DNA of 37,393 nt, from the UHGV virus genome UHGV-0149281; one strand, given 5' to 3'. The DNA comes from a virus. Within the stretch, counting starts at the first letter, position 1. Every line of letters begins with the position of its first letter. The notes beneath the pieces are model-generated. The model did no database searches. It was not told where the DNA came from and saw only the letters and a list, made by a program, of their open reading frames with translations. Positions 4,542 through 33,321 of the stretch are shown piece by piece. Position numbers and translations under genes: made by a program.

Positions 4542-5012
4542 CTAGTAGAATACCCAATTTTCTGTTTCTTGGTTGTGTCCAAAGTTATATTCAATATCTG
4601 GTGTTGATGTATCAATATTCTTCATCCCATCAACAAGAGTTGATACAACAGCCAAATCTTGTTTGATTCTCATTAAATGGTATTTCTTCCGGCGCAATAA
4701 ACTTTCAATGGCAAGTTTCTTCGTTGGGAATGCAAAAGATCTTTCTGCATTTTTTGCTACTTTCTTAATTGCATATCTATTTCTCTTTTGTTTCCATTCC
4801 TGTAACCACTGATTTGGTGCTGGTTTAAAATTAACAATCCAATGCGCAGGAACCAACCATGCATAATGCTCTGTCTGATGAAAAGCTATATATTGAAGTG
4901 CGAATATTTTGATTCCATCTTCTTCAACTGTCGCCTGGAATCTCCAGAAAACAGGCATTCCATCATGTTCAGTTTCTGATTCAGGAAAAGGTACGCTCCA
5001 TGATTTTGTCAT
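4542..5012 (-). CDS. hypothetical protein (156 aa), AT-rich, directly downstream of N
   Basis: ORF in markedly AT-rich DNA; sits where lambda/P22 carry ral/sieB/gene 17; no recognisable motif. Confidence 0.55.
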   Translation of the reverse strand: MTKSWSVPFPESETEHDGMPVFWRFQATVEEDGIKIFALQYIAFHQTEHYAWLVPAHWIVNFKPAPNQWLQEWKQKRNRYAIKKVAKNAERSFAFPTKKLAIESLLRRKKYHLMRIKQDLAVVSTLVDGMKNIDTSTPDIEYNFGHNQETENWVFY

Positions 5013-5020
5013 ATCTCACC

Positions 5021-5320
5021 TCAAATAAGTGGCTTGCTGCCTAATTTCATTTTCTGGCGACCAACACAAGTCACACCCATTTCACTGCGTGGCTTGCGGT
5101 AGTAAATACGGTTCTGTTTACGCTCGACTTCATCTGCCTTCTTGCAGAGAAGGCTTCCGAGTGATGCTGCTTTGTCTGCTCTGACGCAACCAGAGAGCTT
5201 TAGCGCAATTTTTCGCGCCAGTCGCTGTTCTTCCATTGCCTGCTCACGTTGAGCCTGTCTGCGTGCTCTGCGGCGATTTCTGGCGTTATCGTCAGCCAGA
5301 TATGTAATGACTACTGTCAT
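5021..5320 (-). CDS. N: N-like transcription antiterminator
   Basis: N-terminal arginine-rich motif (NARNRRRARRQAQREQ); C-terminus RKPRSEMGVTCVGRQKMKLGSKPLI parallels lambda N; GGAGG RBS; nutL immediately upstream. Confidence 0.85.
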   Translation of the reverse strand: MTVVITYLADDNARNRRRARRQAQREQAMEEQRLARKIALKLSGCVRADKAASLGSLLCKKADEVERKQNRIYYRKPRSEMGVTCVGRQKMKLGSKPLI

Positions 5321-5516: not shown

Positions 5517-5556
5517 AATACTGTAGGTATTTTATTGTGTAAATACCCAAGGTATT
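5517..5556 (-). promoter_or_regulatory. oL operators / pL promoter region
   Basis: Two 15-bp palindromes AATACTGTAGGTATT and AATACCCAAGGTATT (consensus AATAC-N5-GTATT), the same consensus as at oR. Confidence 0.65.
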
Positions 5557-5688
5557 TATTTTTGGTGAAATAATGATAAGCAAATGAATACAAAGGATAT
5601 TTATTTTTTTCGGTGTCTGCTTGTTCAGTGCTTTTTATGCGGGATATGTGAAGTGGATCCCGATAGCTATTGCTGCCGGGATTATAGG

Positions 5689-6057
5689 TTAGTCAGCGAA
5701 GGTTAAGACGAGAATTACCTTAATGATGTCTGCTACAACAGACACGGCCATAGATAAACCAAAGACGATCCAAGCCACAGTGATGTCTTCACTACCATCG
5801 TATAGAGTTCCGTAATCACTGGTGTAAGGCGTAAATGTCGCGCCTTGATACAATAGGTATAAGCTTGATCCATAGAGGATAAATGCAGATATCCCTTGTA
5901 TTGCTATGACCACTAGAATCATGAAACGAGCTGATCTATGCGCCCAAGCCTGGCTTATTTTTTCTGATAGAGATTTCGCAATAAAAGCATGCGCTAAGCC
6001 GTAAATTGTCGAGATTGCCAACATCCCAAAAAAGCTTGCTATAGCGGTTCCAACCAT
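5689..6057 (-). CDS. small polytopic membrane protein downstream of cI (rex-like position)
   Basis: ORF with several hydrophobic helices; ATG at 6057 (alternative TTG at 6078 overlapping the cI stop); same strand as cI. Confidence 0.65.
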   Translation of the reverse strand: MVGTAIASFFGMLAISTIYGLAHAFIAKSLSEKISQAWAHRSARFMILVVIAIQGISAFILYGSSLYLLYQGATFTPYTSDYGTLYDGSEDITVAWIVFGLSMAVSVVADIIKVILVLTFAD

Positions 6058-6074
6058 AATCGCCCCTTGCGTGA

Positions 6075-6791
6075 TCAAACCAGCCTTAGTTTTGTCTCAA
6101 TTGCAACGCCTATAATCTTGCAGTTTCCATTGATTGGCACGAGAGGCCATGCAGGATTAAGTCCCTTGAGGTATTTATTTCCGCCGTCGATTATCAGCTT
6201 CTTGAATGTTGCTTCGTTAGAGTCAGAAAGTTTTGCTATGACCAAGCTGCCGTTGATCGCCTCCCTTCCGGTATCGAAAAGAACGAATGTTCCCTCTGGA
6301 ATGCTTAACCCAACCGGTGCCGTCATTGAATCACCTTCCACTTTAAGCCAGAACGCATTACCTTGAATATGCGCGTCAGACTCAAGCCAAACATCTATGT
6401 CTTTAATGGTGTATGGTTCGCATGCTTCACACCACGAGCCAGCCTGGATACTGCTTAACACCGGATACCTCTTTCCTGCTCTGTATTCCCCTGCATACCT
6501 TACGTTGGCATCGCTCTTAAGGCTTTCTGCCTGTTCTGCAACCTTGGCAGCAATTGACTGGCTAAAATCAGCAATTGAGACTTGCAACAAACGTGCAAAA
6601 CCAGATGCGACCTCAACGTTTAGCGCGTTTCTGCCATTAAGATAATGCCCTACCGCTCCTTGGGTGATACCCAGTTCATCAGCGATTGAGTATTGGGTTA
6701 TTCCCAATTCTTTCTTTTTTGACTCATACAAAGCCTTAAGCCGCTTAGCGTCTTCGAGCTGTTCTGTCGTCAGTGATTTTTTATTTTCCAT
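6075..6791 (-). CDS. cI: CI-type prophage repressor (HTH + LexA/S24 peptidase-like domain)
   Basis: 238 aa; N-terminal HTH (QYSIADELGITQGAVGHYLNG); C-terminal domain has the S24 Ser/Lys-type motifs (GDSM...K); divergent from cro. Confidence 0.9.
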   Translation of the reverse strand: MENKKSLTTEQLEDAKRLKALYESKKKELGITQYSIADELGITQGAVGHYLNGRNALNVEVASGFARLLQVSIADFSQSIAAKVAEQAESLKSDANVRYAGEYRAGKRYPVLSSIQAGSWCEACEPYTIKDIDVWLESDAHIQGNAFWLKVEGDSMTAPVGLSIPEGTFVLFDTGREAINGSLVIAKLSDSNEATFKKLIIDGGNKYLKGLNPAWPLVPINGNCKIIGVAIETKLRLV

Positions 6792-6866: not shown

Positions 6867-6897
6867 CTTTGTTCATGGTTAATAACGGAGAGTGCAT

Positions 6898-7092
6898 ATG
6901 ATTCGAATGACACTTGCCGATTACGCCAAAATCCATGGACAGGCTAAAGCAGCCAGTGACTTTGGTGTAATCCAGTGCGCTATCAGTAAGGCCATTCTGG
7001 CAGGCCGTAACATTATGGTTACGGTAAAGCCTGATGGCAGTGTGATTGGAGAGGAAGTTCGTCCTTTCCCAAGCAACAAGAAAAACAAATAG
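6898..7092 (+). CDS. cro: Cro repressor
   Basis: [34 protein letters not shown]....[16 protein letters not shown] parallels lambda Cro; GGAG RBS. Confidence 0.9.
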
Positions 7093-7200: not shown

Positions 7201-7479
7201 ATGCAACTTACAAGTACTCGCAAGAAAGCGAATGCAATTACAAGCAACATCCTGAATCGAATTGCTGTACGTGGTCAGCGAAAGGTTGCCGACGCGTTAG
7301 GGATTAATGAATCGCAAATTTCGCGATGGAAAGACAGCTTTATCCCAAAGATGGCCATGCTTCTGGCTGTTCTTGAATGGGGAGTTGTTGATGATGAGAT
7401 GGCGAGACTTGCTCAGCAGGTGGCATCGATTCTCACAAAAGAAAAACGCCCAGCTGTTGGTAGCAGTCTGGACGCTTAA
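7201..7479 (+). CDS. cII: cII transcriptional activator
   Basis: ...SQISRWK..FIPKMAMLLAVLEWGVVDDEMARLAQQVASILT matches lambda CII closely. Confidence 0.9.
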   Translation: MQLTSTRKKANAITSNILNRIAVRGQRKVADALGINESQISRWKDSFIPKMAMLLAVLEWGVVDDEMARLAQQVASILTKEKRPAVGSSLDA

Positions 7480-7513: not shown

Positions 7514-7918
7514 ATGCCAGGACAAACCAAGCAAGTAAACACCGGCATAAAGGCCGGTGACAAGTTCGAAACCGTATATCCATTTATCTTCGTATGCACA
7601 GATTATCAGTCTTATGACGGCAACGTGCATACCGATGAGCGCTGGATTGGCGGTTGTCACAAAAATTATGAGCCAGCCGATTGTGGTTATGGTGATCAGT
7701 GTTTTTACACCGCTGATGCTGAAGGAAAGAGAATTCTTGAGGTTCTGGCAGTGGTGGAAATGCCAGGCAACTGGCAGCGCAGAATCATTTATTCGTGCCA
7801 CCTCATAGAGCCTGAAGGCAAGGAGAGGAAAGGAAGGAAGGCTTACACAGTCACCGAATCAAGGTTTTTAAAAATGTCTACTGGTTACTTCGCTGATTAC
7901 GAAGTAGAGGAGGCTTAA
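7514..7918 (+). CDS. hypothetical Cys-containing protein (134 aa) inserted between cII and O
   Basis: ATG 7514 with AGGAG RBS; in frame with a longer ORF overlapping cII that was rejected; no recognisable motif. Confidence 0.6.
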
Positions 7919-23571: not shown

Positions 23572-24093
23572 TTATTTCGATATCGTGATGTTGTTTTCCT
23601 CGTCAAACTTTCTGATTACTTCTTTCGCCTCTTCGAATGAAGAACATACTTTTTGCACTCTTGCATTAAGCAGTCGCTTATGAGCGATCCATCTTTTCCG
23701 CGTGTTGCAAAAGTAAACTCCAGATATTCCGCTGGAGTTATTTTTAGATAGTTTGATTCTATTCCTTTGGTTTGCTGATTTTTTCACAAGACGAAGATTT
23801 TCAATTCTGTTGTCGTGGCGAATCCCATTTATATGGTCAATTTCCATGCCTTCTGGAATATCTCCGTTAAACATTACCCATACGATGCGGTGTGCTAGCC
23901 ACTTAATGCCGTTAATTCTTATGCGGATATATCCATTGCTTTCTAAAAGACCAGCAACTTTCCCAGCGTGTTTTGCATTCCAAACGTTGTGATAGTTGCG
24001 ATTCTTTTTGTTGTTGAAAAATTCAGAGCTTCTGGCTTTCCAAACCAAAGAGCCATCGCGGTATTCGAAGTATTCATTCAGTTCCATGCTCAT
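23572..24093 (-). CDS. free-standing HNH homing endonuclease with AP2-like DNA-binding domain
   Basis: 173 aa; HNH motif EIDHINGIRHDNRIENLRLV; C-terminal SGISGVYF...KRWIAHKR AP2-like; AT-rich; opposite strand to the head operon. Confidence 0.85.
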   Translation of the reverse strand: MSMELNEYFEYRDGSLVWKARSSEFFNNKKNRNYHNVWNAKHAGKVAGLLESNGYIRIRINGIKWLAHRIVWVMFNGDIPEGMEIDHINGIRHDNRIENLRLVKKSANQRNRIKLSKNNSSGISGVYFCNTRKRWIAHKRLLNARVQKVCSSFEEAKEVIRKFDEENNITISK

Positions 24094-29491: not shown

Positions 29492-30871
29492 ATGGCTACG
29501 TGGCAACAGGGTATTAATTCTGGTGGTTTTCTGGCTGGCATCGGTACGCAAAATGAGAATGCGCCAAAGGCAAGCGACATTAACGCAACGCTTGGTCTGA
29601 TCCGCGAAAACAATGAACTGGCTCGCTCAGGTGCAAATAACGTTGGTCTGACCGCGTTACGTGGTCTGGCTGGAGTTGCTGATATTTACAATCAGGAACA
29701 GCAACAGAAAGCTATTAGTGCGTTCAATAAGGTTCACGCTGATGCATGGGCTTCTGGTGATCCATCGGGACTATTTAAGTTTGCCCAGGAAAATCCAGCG
29801 TTTGTTGCACAGGCACAACAGGCGTTTTCCGGTCTTAATGAGCAGCAACGCAACGATATGGGCGATTTAGCCATGAGGGCTAACGTCGCTCTTTCTCAGG
29901 GACCGGAAGCCTACAGTAAATTCATTACTGACAACAAGGACAGGTTAAATCGCGTGGGGGCGAATGCTGACTGGATGATTCAGACAGGTATCCAGAATCC
30001 AGAGCAGCTATCACACATGCTGACTACTATGTCTCTCGGTGCGCTTGGACCAGAAAAGGCGTTTGCTGTTCAGGATAAGATGGCTGGTCGTGAAATTGAC
30101 CGAGGCAGGCTGGCAGAGACAATCCGCAGCAATCAGGCTGGCGAGGCGCTAACAGCGCGTGGTCAGAATATCACGATGCGCGGTCAGGATTTATCGATGC
30201 AGAGAGCATCAATGAAAGGGTCGGTTGGGAATAATGAGCGTACAGTTCAGTTAGCAGATGGCAGAACTGTAACGGTAGGCGGGAAGCTTCACGGCGCTGG
30301 GGCTAATGCGTTCTACGAAGGTATCGACAACGAGGGGAATATGGTTCGCGTTCCTGCTGGCTCTATTGCCGCTCCGGCTACATCGGCAGCAAGCGCGCAG
30401 AATTACGCAATGAAGAAAGATCTTGATGCAATTTCTGGTGCATCAATTGACGATCTTGGCTTCATGACTGGCATTACAGGCTCTTCAGGTTCTCCTGCTC
30501 TTGGTGCAGATATTCGTAGCCGTGCATCTGGTGGTGATCAGAGGAAACTATACAACGCTGCACAGCGAATCCAAGGAAAGATGCAGAATCAGGGCATTGC
30601 AGCAGCCAGAGACATGGGGGCATCCGGTATCAACACCGTTGCAGAAGCAAAGCTGTATTTTCAAGGTATGCCACAGGTTGATTTCTCAAGCCCTGAAGCA
30701 CTGCAACAATCAATGCGCGACATTCAGCAATATACCGACAATTACAACCAACAATATAACGTTAATGTCGGTAATGGAGGGAAGAAATCATCAATGCAAC
30801 AGCCGCCTACTCAGCAATCAGCAGGAGGTAGCTACACGTCAAAATCAGGCATTCAATTTACGGTGGAATGA
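29492..30871 (+). CDS. ejection protein (P22 gp20-like)
   Basis: 459 aa ORF at the syntenic position; start overlaps the gp16 gene end. Confidence 0.85.
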
Positions 30872-32997
30872 TGAAAGTAACTGCAAACGGTAAGACATTT
30901 ACCTTTCCTGATGGTACGAGCACCGAAGATATTGGCACCGCCATTGATGAGTATTTTGCTGGTCAGGCTGTTCAGCAACAAACAGTTAATCAGGCCAATA
31001 ATGCACCAACACGGGAAGAACCATCATTGATGCAACAAGCTGGCGATTGGCTCACTGGTGGTCAAAGTGCAGGGCAAATTGCAGAACAGGCTGGTCGTGG
31101 TCTGGTAAACATACCATTTGACGTATTGCAGGGTGGCGCAAGTCTGATTAATGCAATCAGTCAGGGGCTTGGTGGCCCCAAGGTTTTGGATGATGTCTAT
31201 CGCCCTGTCGATCGACCGACAGACCCTTACGCGCAAGCCGGTGAAACAATTGGTGGGTATCTCCTGCCAATTGGCACAGCAGCAAAAGCTGCTGGAGCGC
31301 CAGCAAAGCTCGCAGGAGACATCGGTTCCGCAGGAAACATGATTGCCGGTTCTCTTGCTGATGCTGCAAATCAGGAGGGTGATTTTGCACAAAATGCTGC
31401 CATTAACGGTGGTATCAATATTGGTGCTCAAAGCGTTCTTTCAGGTGTCGGGCGCGTTATTGCGCCAAGAGTTTCACAGGCTCTTGGTGGTGCAGCACTG
31501 AATTCTGCTAATGATGTTTCCAGGATGGCAAAGTCAGGTGCTGGGCGTCAGTCAATTGCCAGTCAGGCCGCTAATGTGTCCGAAGATGTAGCAAAAGCGG
31601 CTGAGTCTGCTGGAATTGATATAAACGCATTAACACCAGGAATGCGATCTGGAAGTCGTGGAATTGCACAAGCCGAAGGCGCATTGGCATCAACACCAGG
31701 AATTGTTCAGGACGCCCATCAGGCAGCATTTAACGAAATATCATCAAAGTTAAGTCGAAACCTTGATGAATTTGGGGCCGCATCTGGAACGGCATCAGAA
31801 AAAAGTGCGGCTATAAAACAAAGGATTCTTCAAAATCTTGATCAGATGAAGGATGCCGAGCGCGCGGCATGGGATGACGTGCGGTCAACAATGCCAAATC
31901 AAAAAGCAAGAATGCTAAATGGTAATGCCGTTATTCAGGCAGAGCGATCTGCTGGCATACCGCTTACTCCTGAAATGAAACAGTTTGTTCAGGCAAACAA
32001 TCAAGGTGGAGTAACATTTGATGGCATGAAAGCATGGAGAGCGAAATTTGCTGATGCGGAGCAAAAATATAAGCGTGGCGGAGAGGCAAATGCGGCAAGG
32101 AGAGCAGGGGAAATACGCCGGGCAATTACTGATGATATGCGCACAATGGCGGAAAACGGCGGATTTCTTGATGACTGGCAGAAAGCTAATGATCTGTCTA
32201 AAGCGAGGTTATCAGCACAAGAGAGTGCAGAGTCTGTTTTCGGGCGTGATTTGGCAACAGATGCACTGATTACGAATGGAGTAAAATCCCTTCAATCATC
32301 GTCAGCTAAAGGTCTTAATGGTCCTGCTGGGTTCCATTCTATGATCCGCGCGCTGCCAGAATCAGAGCGTGTTCCTGCTATATCATCAATGTTGCAAGAT
32401 GCTATCTCGCATGGTGTACGTGGTGGCAAAGCTGATGCAGCAGGAATTAACCATATCGCAGGGATACTTACCCCACAAAATGTAAAAGCCATTAGCAGGT
32501 ATTCCTCAGAACTTGGAAGAATTGCTGATGCATATGGCACTCTTGCAAGAGCAGCAGTGAAACCTCAGCAGTATATTGAAAGAACAGGGAGAACTGCCAA
32601 TGTACTACGCGATCTGGATGCCGGTTTATCCAACGTCACATCAACAGTGTTAAATGCAATTGCCAACTCAACATCAGGTGCAATTGTTGGTGGAGCAGGA
32701 GGAGGGGGTATTGCAGGCGCTGCCGCAGGTGCTTTAGTTGGCGCCGGGTTAAAAGGTGCTGTATCTAAAATTGCCACCACGCGTAGCGGTCGATATGCGA
32801 TAGAGAAAGCAGTTCAGGAAGCCACGAAAGCAGTAAGAGCTGGCGGAAGTAAAGAAGCATTAGCGGCGGCGGAACGCAGATTTATGGCAAATAAAGCCGC
32901 CGTAAAAGCAATACGTGATGCAGTTGGAAACGAAGAGTTCAATCGCTTAGCGAGGGCTGGCATTGTAGCGTCGCTAAGCGGAATAGCACAGGAGTAA
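30868..32997 (+). CDS. ejection protein (P22 gp16-like)
   Basis: 709 aa, Ala/Gly-rich; last gene of the ejection-protein block before the ImmI region. Confidence 0.85.
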
Positions 32998-33321
32998 TTA
33001 ATCATCCATGGATGGATTGAGCTTATCTCGTGTTGATGTGGCGATTTGTCCTACATTCCTAAGCCAAGATTTCAAATCCTTGATATTGTCATTGATTTCA
33101 TGAATATCTTCTTTTTTTAGTCTGTTAATATTATTCTCAATAATTTCAATGGATTGCTCAATATCAGATATAGTGAATGATAGTTTGTTCTTCTCATCTT
33201 TTATTGAGTTTTTAAGTGCTTCGTTCTCAGTCTTGAGGTCAGATATCTTTTGTTTTAAAGATGCCAGTTGGTACTGAACCACAATGAGTGCGATAGCTAT
33301 CACGATAACTGTTGTATACAC
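32998..33321 (-). CDS. small membrane-anchored coiled-coil protein (sieA-locus replacement)
   Basis: GTG start with strong AAGGAGG RBS; N-terminal TM (YTTVIVIAIALIVV) then a heptad coiled coil; very AT-rich. Confidence 0.65.
   Translation of the reverse strand: MYTTVIVIAIALIVVQYQLASLKQKISDLKTENEALKNSIKDEKNKLSFTISDIEQSIEIIENNINRLKKEDIHEINDNIKDLKSWLRNVGQIATSTRDKLNPSMDD

What the first reader, a model, noticed from the sequence alone, without database searches (positions are those of the whole stretch)
5689..6057. Membrane protein co-transcribed downstream of cI, at the rexAB position
A ~122-aa protein with about four hydrophobic helices follows the cI stop on the same strand, between cI and oL/pL. 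In lambda this slot holds rexA/rexB, which are expressed in the lysogen from pRM; here there is a single membrane protein with no RexA partner. It is the strongest candidate in the window for a lysogen-expressed abortive-infection or exclusion function.
Basis: partly seen in the sequence, partly recalled or inferred. Interest (0 to 1): 0.7.

Follow-up and report, generated by a model that had tools for sequence, protein, structure and literature searches.

The report
HkaS: orphan membrane protein after cI
A small three-helix membrane protein gene (hkaS of phage HK620, function still unknown) sits directly behind the prophage repressor gene, in a slot where related prophages carry known anti-phage genes, so it is a reasonable but untested candidate for a lysogen-expressed phage-exclusion protein.

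Summary
The ORF is real: window 5689-6057, minus strand, 122 aa. It starts 17 nt after the cI stop, has its own Shine-Dalgarno sequence, and is followed by a stem-loop and then the leftward operators and pL. It is the gene annotated in 2001 as hkaS ("unknown") in phage HK620, at 98% aa identity. It travels with the HK620-type cI in podoviruses, siphoviruses, Stx2c phages and 146 of 5426 complete E. coli genomes.

It has three long transmembrane helices, not four (AlphaFold pLDDT 92), with predicted N-out/C-in topology. It is not a RexB homologue (Pfam RexB negative, hhalign 0.7%). It is also unrelated to 434 Hex and P22 SieA, and it matches no Pfam, NCBIfam or PADLOC model and no known fold.

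The family is an orphan: 2 representatives among 1.84 billion proteins. Every one of the 9 contexts examined is cI→hkaS, and in 8 of them N follows. It is under purifying selection but changes about 4 times faster than cI.

In related cI families the same slot holds RexA/RexB, BstA, Hex-like proteins and PADLOC candidate defence genes. So the positional argument for a lysogen-expressed exclusion or abortive-infection function is sound, but function and expression are inferred, not shown. Verdict: known uncharacterised gene, moderately interesting.

The parts
5689..6057 (-). hkaS coding sequence: 122 aa plus stop. Predicted three-TM inner-membrane protein, N-terminus out and C-terminus in.
   Evidence: ORF and translation. 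98% aa identity to HK620 hkaS, annotated 'unknown'. phrog_6534, unknown function, 4.8e-79. AlphaFold2 pLDDT 92 with three long helices. Hydropathy and charge distribution.
6058..6074 (-). 17-nt cI-hkaS spacer carrying the Shine-Dalgarno AAGGGG (6063-6068), 5 nt before the ATG.
   Evidence: Sequence. A comparable SD 5-9 nt before the ATG and a 17-21 nt gap are kept in four diverged lineages although the spacer sequence differs. No promoter or terminator match lies here.
6075..6791 (-). cI repressor, 238 aa: the upstream gene of the inferred pRM/pRE operon.
   Evidence: HTH_3 8e-10 and Peptidase_S24 5e-24. phrog_4 transcriptional repressor. Annotated cI in HK620.
5657..5682 (-). Stem-loop starting 7 nt after the hkaS stop: candidate end or stabiliser of the immunity transcript. 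It has no U-tract.
   Evidence: RNA fold. Equivalent hairpins with unrelated sequence occur at the same place in L002 (z = -3.4) and L006. The terminator scan found no canonical intrinsic terminator. The HK620 record places tIMM slightly further downstream.
5517..5601 (-). Leftward operator cluster (AATAYC-N4-GTATT at 5517-5531, 5542-5556, 5587-5601) overlapping the pL-like promoter (TTTACA-17-TATTCT, 5543-5515).
   Evidence: Pattern search gave 10 strand-hits against 1.0 expected. Promoter scan. HK620 annotation of OL1, OL2 and pL. The block is invariant across diverged lineages.
5021..5320 (-). N antiterminator: the first pL gene, which marks the far border of the slot.
   Evidence: phrog_271 6.8e-36. 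Pfam N_peptide, weak. The N genes next to hkaS homologues are unrelated (18-36% identity), so the mosaic boundary lies between hkaS and N.

Best explanation
This is hkaS, an accessory ('moron') gene of the HK620-type immunity module. It is transcribed leftward with cI from pRM in the lysogen and from pRE during establishment. It is translated from its own Shine-Dalgarno sequence and inserted in the inner membrane as a three-helix bundle. The N-terminus and an acidic, fast-evolving 18-residue hairpin loop face the periplasm. A basic, conserved amphipathic helix and the invariant C-terminal ILVLTFAD lie at the cytoplasmic face.

Its most likely job is to protect the lysogen against superinfecting, heteroimmune phages by acting at the inner membrane. 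It has no soluble domain and no partner gene, so I favour interference with phage DNA entry or with a host membrane factor needed for it. That mechanism resembles P22 SieA, T4 Imm and HK97 gp15. I rank it above a RexB-style triggered depolarisation.

Shown: the gene is real, its position, its signals, its predicted fold and topology, its orphan status, and the defence-rich occupancy of the slot. Inferred: expression from pRM, membrane location, and any exclusion function.
For: Gene reality and linkage. There are 122 codons with no indels down to 52% identity. pN is 0.27-0.33 against a saturated pS of about 0.8, and cI in the same modules has pN 0.07-0.08. All 9 contexts looked at (window, HK620, L002-L006, L034, L091-L093) have cI followed by hkaS, and all but the unexamined L034 then have N.

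Operon architecture. The gap is 17-21 nt with a conserved SD and no intervening promoter or terminator match. A stem-loop and then the operators and pL lie downstream.

Membrane protein. AlphaFold2 gives pLDDT 92 and three helices of 28-33 residues. K/R residues cluster in loop 1 and D/E residues in loop 2.

The slot is a defence hotspot in this very cI family. Occupants include RexA plus RexB, BstA (PADLOC 1.2e-115), three Hex-like proteins, PDC-S42, PDC-M63A and PDC-M03A. The literature says the same of the cI-N region and lists rexAB, 933W stk and 434 hex as pRM co-transcribed exclusion genes (PMC8585504; PMC3564112).

Precedent and variability. A stand-alone three-TM inner-membrane exclusion protein exists: P22 SieA (PMC10883804). 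The periplasmic loop is the least conserved segment, with 2 of 18 residues invariant against 25-37% elsewhere.

Carriers. The module is carried by phages with different virion types (HK620 and this window are P22-like; mEpX2, HK630 and HK140 belong to different phage lineages, long-tailed by my own knowledge, which no tool confirmed; plus Stx2c phages). This argues for a function not tied to the carrier's own virion.
Against: There is no experimental or transcript evidence for hkaS. No paper in the library names its function. It has no similarity to any known exclusion or Abi protein: PADLOC 0 hits, RexB 0.7%, Hex 0.1% and SieA 0.3% by hhalign. PHROGs gives only its own unknown family. Fold searches return only generic helical bundles.

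Guilt by position is not proof. The same slot also holds genes not known to be defensive (DUF1275, a Tlde1-domain protein, small ORFs) or is empty. Hex also acts on repressor stability rather than only on exclusion. Faster evolution and a variable loop are equally explained by relaxed constraint on a small membrane protein.
Confidence: 0.5

Rival explanations
1. RexB-like abortive-infection effector without RexA. HkaS oligomerises into a latent channel. A membrane event of the infecting phage (ejection proteins, a holin or another membrane protein) triggers it, it depolarises the cell, and the infection aborts.
For: It occupies the same slot as rexAB, shown by real exchange in a related cI family. 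Conserved polar residues lie inside the helices (Q54, S65, S106, D110, K113), and an invariant cytoplasmic amphipathic helix could act as a gate. Single-gene Abi proteins exist in this slot, for example BstA.
Against: There is no sequence relation to RexB and there are three helices rather than four. No sensor domain or partner is present. The only non-membrane parts are two loops of about 15-18 residues, so a trigger is hard to picture. No channel-like structural match was found.
Confidence: 0.2
2. Lysogeny-management factor rather than defence. HkaS tunes prophage stability or induction, as 434 Hex does for repressor cleavage or as RexB alone does for ClpXP substrates. It could act on a membrane protease or partner (FtsH/HflKC) or on the cI C-terminal domain.
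For: Hex, in the same slot of 434, lowers spontaneous induction 30-fold (PMC3564112). hkaS stays with a ~90% identical cI C-terminal domain even where the DNA-binding domain has been swapped (L034). It is strictly co-inherited with one cI clade, whose members are at least 86% identical among the full-length cI genes compared.
Against: Co-inheritance is expected from 17-nt physical linkage alone. cI relatives with C-terminal domains up to 76% identical carry other cargo. A polytopic protein with almost no cytoplasmic mass is an unlikely inhibitor of RecA-mediated cleavage. There is no similarity to Hex.
Confidence: 0.12
3. Lysogenic-conversion factor unrelated to phages: a small membrane protein that changes host envelope physiology, such as stress, acid, bile or antimicrobial-peptide tolerance, or small-solute leak.
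For: It is expressed only in the lysogenic state by inference. It is found in 2.7% of complete E. coli genomes from gut, food-animal and STEC sources. Some slot occupants are not known defence genes (DUF1275, Tlde1).
Against: There is no match to any transporter or envelope family. The family is confined to one phage immunity module, whereas host-benefit factors usually spread more widely. The known occupants of the slot are predominantly anti-phage.
Confidence: 0.1
4. Non-functional or decaying ORF carried along by linkage to cI.
For: It evolves about 4 times faster than cI at non-synonymous sites. A few frameshifted variants exist (P0006, P0007, P0009).
Against: Non-synonymous change is well below synonymous change. 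Length is strictly conserved and there are 43 invariant columns, including the whole C-terminus. The SD is conserved. Intact clusters hold hundreds of members against 1-2 for the frameshifted ones. AlphaFold2 gives a confident model from only 7 sequences.
Confidence: 0.03

Closest known systems
HkaS of coliphage HK620 (AAK28867; phrog_6534)
   Same: The same gene: 98% aa identity, the same 122 aa, and the same place between cI and tIMM/OL.
   Different: Nothing material. It has been annotated 'unknown' or 'hypothetical protein' since 2001, and in all 146 E. coli genomes that carry it.
Lambda RexB (Pfam PF15968), the membrane component of the RexAB abortive-infection system
   Same: A small polytopic inner-membrane protein encoded downstream of cI and upstream of OL/pL. 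The slot is interchangeable: rexA-rexB follow an HK620-like cI in locus L010.
   Different: No sequence relation (Pfam negative at E<=1; hhalign probability 0.7%). Three helices against RexB's four (the RexB number is from my own knowledge; no tool checked it). No RexA partner. 122 aa against 144 aa.
P22 SieA (inner-membrane superinfection exclusion protein)
   Same: A stand-alone, prophage-expressed protein with three predicted TM helices and little soluble mass. This is the closest architectural and mechanistic analogue (PMC10883804).
   Different: No sequence similarity (hhalign 0.3%). SieA is 162-164 aa and has a conserved cytoplasmic FxRYPxEAxxFNK motif, which is absent here. SieA has its own promoter and sits in the immI region beside gene 16, not behind the repressor.
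434 Hex ('repressor protection' / heterologous exclusion protein)
   Same: A single accessory gene directly after the repressor on the pRM transcript, shown by RT-PCR for 434 (PMC3564112). Hex-like genes occupy the slot next to cI relatives (L062, L063, L071).
   Different: Hex is a signal-peptide protein with a soluble body, not a polytopic membrane protein. hhalign probability is 0.1%.
BstA (BTP1 prophage Abi protein downstream of cI)
   Same: A single-gene defence protein in the same cI-N slot that presumably shares the repressor promoter (PMC8585504). A BstA homologue follows a cI 69% identical to this one (L013).
   Different: BstA is a soluble DNA-binding protein of about 300 aa with a cognate aba self-immunity element. 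It is unrelated in sequence and architecture.

Membership tests
RexB (PF15968) / RexAB system | Sequence match to the RexB family model | tested here: not met
   The Pfam scan at E<=1 gives no RexB hit. The same model scores lambda RexB at 8.5e-92. hhalign probability is 0.7%.
RexB (PF15968) / RexAB system | Adjacent RexA sensor gene | tested here: not met
   Only 17 nt separate cI and hkaS, and only operators and pL follow. No RexA hit was found. RexA was readily detected in L010 as a control.
RexB (PF15968) / RexAB system | Four transmembrane helices | tested here: not met
   Three hydrophobic peaks and three long helices in the pLDDT-92 model. The four-helix count for RexB itself is from my own knowledge and was not checked with a tool.
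RexB (PF15968) / RexAB system | Location downstream of cI on the immunity transcript, upstream of OL/pL | tested here: met
RexB (PF15968) / RexAB system | Abortive infection of T4 rII and other phages with membrane depolarisation | not testable with these tools
   This needs phage challenge and membrane-potential assays.
P22 SieA-type injection blockers | Sequence similarity to one of the three SieA types, including the cytoplasmic FxRYPxEAxxFNK motif | tested here: not met
   hhalign probability 0.3% against P22 SieA. The motif is absent from the HkaS sequence. The motif is taken from PMC10883804.
P22 SieA-type injection blockers | Integral inner-membrane protein with about three TM helices that acts alone | tested here: inconclusive
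   The three-TM architecture is predicted and no partner gene is conserved. Membrane location and sufficiency are not measured.
P22 SieA-type injection blockers | Blocks DNA delivery of specific phages; escape mutations map to ejection proteins | not testable with these tools
   This needs K+ efflux or DNA-entry assays and selection of escape mutants.
cI-N slot accessory genes co-transcribed with the repressor (rexAB, hex, stk, bstA class) | Same strand, immediately 3' of cI, with no intervening promoter or terminator, and before OL/pL | tested here: met
   A 17-nt gap with an SD. The scan finds nothing between the genes. Operators and pL lie downstream.
cI-N slot accessory genes co-transcribed with the repressor (rexAB, hex, stk, bstA class) | Variable, non-essential cargo: related repressors carry different genes in the slot | tested here: met
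   Among 80 species-level cI relatives only one carries an hkaS homologue. The others have RexAB, BstA, Hex-like, PDC-* or other genes, or nothing.
cI-N slot accessory genes co-transcribed with the repressor (rexAB, hex, stk, bstA class) | Transcript from pRM extends through the gene in lysogens | not testable with these tools
   No expression data are available. RT-PCR evidence exists only for 434 hex.
Class I holins (lambda S105 type) | Three TM helices (N-out, C-in) plus a charged cytoplasmic C-terminal tail, encoded in the lysis cassette | tested here: not met
   The topology is similar. However, the protein ends 3 residues after TM3 (…LVLTFAD) with no charged tail, and it lies in the immunity region, not in the late operon. 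The defining features of the family are from my own knowledge.

The most novel reading that the evidence does not exclude
HkaS is the founding member of a new single-gene, membrane-only anti-phage family. The 122-aa three-helix protein, with no sensor domain and no partner, would on its own recognise an incoming phage's membrane-inserting ejection or tape-measure machinery through its fast-evolving periplasmic hairpin. It would then either block DNA entry or collapse the membrane. The family is absent from every defence catalogue and is confined to one repressor lineage of enterobacterial prophages, including Stx2c phages.
Probability: 0.4. Interest if true: 0.6.

Novelty: new member of a known kind. 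Interest (0 to 1): 0.4.

Why it matters
If HkaS is an exclusion determinant, it would add a sequence-orphan, minimal membrane protein to the short list of inner-membrane phage blockers (SieA, Imm, gp15, RexB). It would give a simple one-gene handle on how phage DNA crosses the inner membrane. It would also explain part of the phage-resistance profile of about 2.7% of sequenced E. coli, including STEC strains that carry Stx2c prophages with this immunity module.

The survey adds a direct demonstration that, within one repressor family, the slot behind cI exchanges RexAB, BstA, Hex-like and several PADLOC candidate systems. The slot is therefore a practical place to mine for further defence genes. 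If HkaS has no phage phenotype, the gene remains an ordinary uncharacterised moron.

Tried and rejected
Searches that found nothing:
- Pfam, NCBIfam and PADLOC gave no family for HkaS. The weak Pfam hits (Cation_ATPase_C at 0.0035, TssN at 0.061) are below cut-off and are typical hydrophobic noise.
- A word-indexed search of 5.8 billion proteins found only 12 clusters. An exhaustive profile search of 1.84 billion representatives found only 2, so no remote relatives could inform function.
- Direct profile comparisons with lambda RexB, 434 Hex and P22 SieA were all negative.
- The terminator scan found no canonical intrinsic terminator after hkaS. Only a stem-loop without a U-tract is present.
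- Rfam found no RNA family in the hkaS-OL spacer.
- GC content gave no moron signature: hkaS is at 0.43-0.44, like cI.
- Literature searches for hkaS, mEpX2, HK630, HK140 and 'downstream of cI' found no functional study.

Ideas rejected:
- A prophage sRNA paper (svsR, PMC12803456) concerns the 3' end of another cI and was set aside.
- A cleavable signal peptide (AHA-F at residue 24) was rejected because the site is not conserved in homologues.
- A 129-aa form starting at TTG 6078 was rejected because the ATG has the conserved SD.

Full report
**What is there**

The window is a mosaic P22-like (Lederbergvirus-type) temperate phage or prophage of E. coli. Its immunity region reads, on the minus strand:
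- cI, 6075-6791, 238 aa (HTH_3 + Peptidase_S24)
- a 17-nt spacer
- the ORF in question, 5689-6057, 122 aa
- a non-coding stretch of about 90 nt
- three operator-consensus sites and a pL-like promoter
- a nutL region
- N, 5021-5320 (phrog_271)

cro (6892-7092) and cII (7201-7479) lie on the other side.

The ATG at 6057 is preceded by AAGGGG at 6063-6068. An in-frame TTG at 6078, which some gene callers use (P0001, 129 aa), overlaps the cI stop and lacks such a signal.

**It is a known, uncharacterised gene**

The 1.6 kb around the ORF is 99% identical to the immunity regions of HK620, mEpX2, HK630, HK140, HF4s, HZ41, phi296/phi367 and two Stx2c-converting phages. Only 16 of 50,697 phage records encode the protein.

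In the HK620 record (AF335538, Clark et al. 2001) it is hkaS, product 'unknown'. That record places a terminator of the cI transcript (tIMM) after it, followed by OL3-OL1/pL.

It forms PHROG 6534, 'unknown function'. It is present once in 146 of 5426 complete E. coli genomes, always chromosomal and always 'hypothetical protein'. No paper in the held library discusses its function.

**It is a real gene under selection, tightly tied to one cI lineage**

A search of 5.8 billion proteins found 12 clusters (52-97% identity) from E. coli, Salmonella and Hafnia. An exhaustive profile search of 1.84 billion representatives found only 2. The family is an orphan.

Homologues at 52-60% identity were located on contigs. 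A further one at 55% identity turned up in Buttiauxella.
- In every case the gene follows a cI by 17-21 nt and has an SD 5-9 nt before the ATG, although the spacer sequence differs. In the eight contexts where the downstream genes were examined, it also precedes an N gene.
- The neighbouring N genes are unrelated (18-36% identity), so the mosaic joint lies just beyond hkaS.
- Between lineages, synonymous sites are saturated in both cI and hkaS (pS about 0.8). Non-synonymous differences are 0.07-0.08 in cI and 0.27-0.33 in hkaS.
- All homologues are exactly 122 aa, with 43 invariant positions.

So hkaS has co-diverged with cI for a long time, under purifying selection about four-fold weaker than on the repressor.

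In the Buttiauxella locus the repressor's DNA-binding domain has been replaced (about 20% identity), while its C-terminal domain is about 90% identical and hkaS is retained. This is what 17-nt linkage predicts.

**The protein**

AlphaFold2 with only seven sequences gives a confident model (pLDDT 92.1, pTM 0.79):
- three long helices: 2-29, 41-73 and 89-121
- a short amphipathic helix, 31-38
- a beta-hairpin, 78-86

Hydropathy shows three peaks in all lineages. Loop 1 holds four K/R residues and one acidic residue. Loop 2 holds no basic and four acidic residues. By the positive-inside rule, the N-terminus and loop 2 are periplasmic, and loop 1 and the C-terminus are cytoplasmic.

The helices are simply long.

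Conserved features are:
- the loop-1 helix (K33, I34, Q36, W38, H40, R44)
- YLLY...TF.PY at the periplasmic end of TM2
- a polar stripe in TM3 (S106, D110, K113)
- the invariant C-terminus ILVLTFAD

The periplasmic loop is the most variable segment, with 2 of 18 positions invariant against 25-37% elsewhere.

**What it is not**

- Not RexB. The Pfam RexB model scores lambda RexB at 8.5e-92 but does not hit HkaS even at E<=1. hhalign probability is 0.7%.
- Not 434 Hex. Hex is a signal-peptide protein, and hhalign probability is 0.1%.
- Not P22 SieA. hhalign probability is 0.3%.
- No PADLOC, NCBIfam or Pfam family matches.
- No fold match beyond generic helical bundles in BFVD or PDB.
- A class I holin shares the 3-TM N-out/C-in layout. 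HkaS, however, has no charged C-terminal tail and sits in the immunity operon.

**The slot**

I fetched 80 species-level relatives of this cI (40-76% identity) and read the gene that follows each. Only one carries hkaS. The others include:
- rexA (Pfam 1.3e-96, PADLOC 1.7e-109) followed by a rexB 98% identical to lambda's (L010)
- BstA (L013, PADLOC 1.2e-115; L048 looks alike but was not scanned)
- three Hex-like proteins (L062, L063, L071)
- PADLOC candidates PDC-S42, PDC-M63A (DUF6932) and PDC-M03A (HipA-like)
- a NYN protein, a Tlde1-domain protein, a DUF1275 membrane protein and tiny 1-2-TM ORFs
- several loci with nothing

Six of the ten larger occupants tested match known or candidate defence models.

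This agrees with the literature. The cI-N interval is a known hotspot of mosaic diversity holding rexAB and bstA (PMC8585504). rexAB, 933W stk and 434 hex are co-transcribed with the repressor from pRM and exclude other phages (PMC3564112).

**How it most likely works**

Shown:
- gene, signals and position
- predicted fold and topology
- orphan distribution
- defence-rich slot

Inferred:
- The only leftward promoters upstream are pRM and pRE. pL and pR fire away from the gene. HkaS should therefore be made in the lysogen and during establishment, and not in lytic growth.
- A hairpin 7 nt after the stop (5657-5682) recurs with a different sequence in other lineages. It may end or stabilise the transcript. 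No canonical terminator was found.
- The protein is almost entirely membrane-embedded and has no conserved partner. The module also rides in phages of different lineages: P22-like phages such as HK620 and this window, phages of other lineages such as mEpX2, HK630 and HK140, and Stx2c phages.

From this I favour a SieA/Imm/gp15-like action at the inner membrane. HkaS would interfere with the DNA-entry conduit of heterotypic phages, or with a host membrane factor they need, and the variable periplasmic hairpin would be the contact surface.

Rough probabilities, which sum to 0.95 with the rest left to readings not listed:

| Reading | Probability |
|---|---|
| Any anti-phage role | about 0.5 |
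| – entry block | about 0.3 |
| – RexB-like triggered channel | about 0.2 |
| Hex-like lysogeny tuning | about 0.12 |
| Other lysogenic conversion | about 0.1 |
| Non-functional | about 0.03 |

**Verdict**

It is unsupported by homology and untested experimentally.

The gene has been in the databases since 2001 as 'unknown', so this is not a discovery of a new feature. It is a reasonable candidate for a new member of the class of repressor-linked accessory genes. Interest is moderate: cheap to test, an orphan family, and present in STEC prophages.

Noticed in passing
window 32998-33321 (minus strand): A 107-aa ORF with an N-terminal hydrophobic anchor and a long coiled-coil-like, K/E/N-rich body (phrog_5962, unknown function). 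It lies just after the 709-aa ORF at 30868-32997, in the position where P22 has sieA beside gene 16. It is a second candidate for a prophage-expressed membrane or exclusion protein in this window.
   Followed up: partly
window 5587-5601 (minus strand): A perfect operator-consensus site (AATATCCTTTGTATT) lies 45 bp beyond OL2. It is invariant in lineages whose hkaS is only 52-60% identical. The HK620 record instead places OL3 at about 5563-5580, where sequence is not conserved. The true third leftward operator may be this site, which would also limit where the immunity transcript can end.
   Followed up: partly
L010 3324-4610 (Siccibacter colletis prophage): A cI 76% identical to the window's is followed by rexA and by a rexB 98% identical to lambda RexB. 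This implies very recent transfer of the lambda rex cassette behind a non-lambda repressor.
   Followed up: partly
L034 2501-3543 (uncultured Buttiauxella sp.): A repressor with an unrelated N-terminal DNA-binding domain but a ~90% identical C-terminal domain is followed by an hkaS homologue (55% identity). This is a domain-swap recombinant of the immunity module.
   Followed up: partly
window 23572-24093 (minus strand): A 173-aa HNH endonuclease ORF (phrog_99, 1.3e-50) is inserted on the opposite strand between the 303-aa and 431-aa late ORFs, which are scaffold- and coat-sized in P22 gene order. It is likely a homing endonuclease.
   Followed up: no
window 7514-7918 (plus strand): A 134-aa ORF (phrog_30464, unknown function) lies between cII and the DUF2740-like small ORF and replication genes. 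HK620 has no gene at this place.
   Followed up: no
window 4542-5012 (minus strand): A 156-aa ORF immediately after N (phrog_1636, unknown function) lies in a stretch of low GC (0.35-0.37, against 0.43-0.54 nearby). HK620 has a different gene (hkaQ) here.
   Followed up: no
window 5888-5902 (plus strand, inside hkaS): A one-mismatch match to the operator consensus (GATATCCCTTGTATT) lies within the hkaS coding sequence. About one such match is expected by chance in the window.
   Followed up: no
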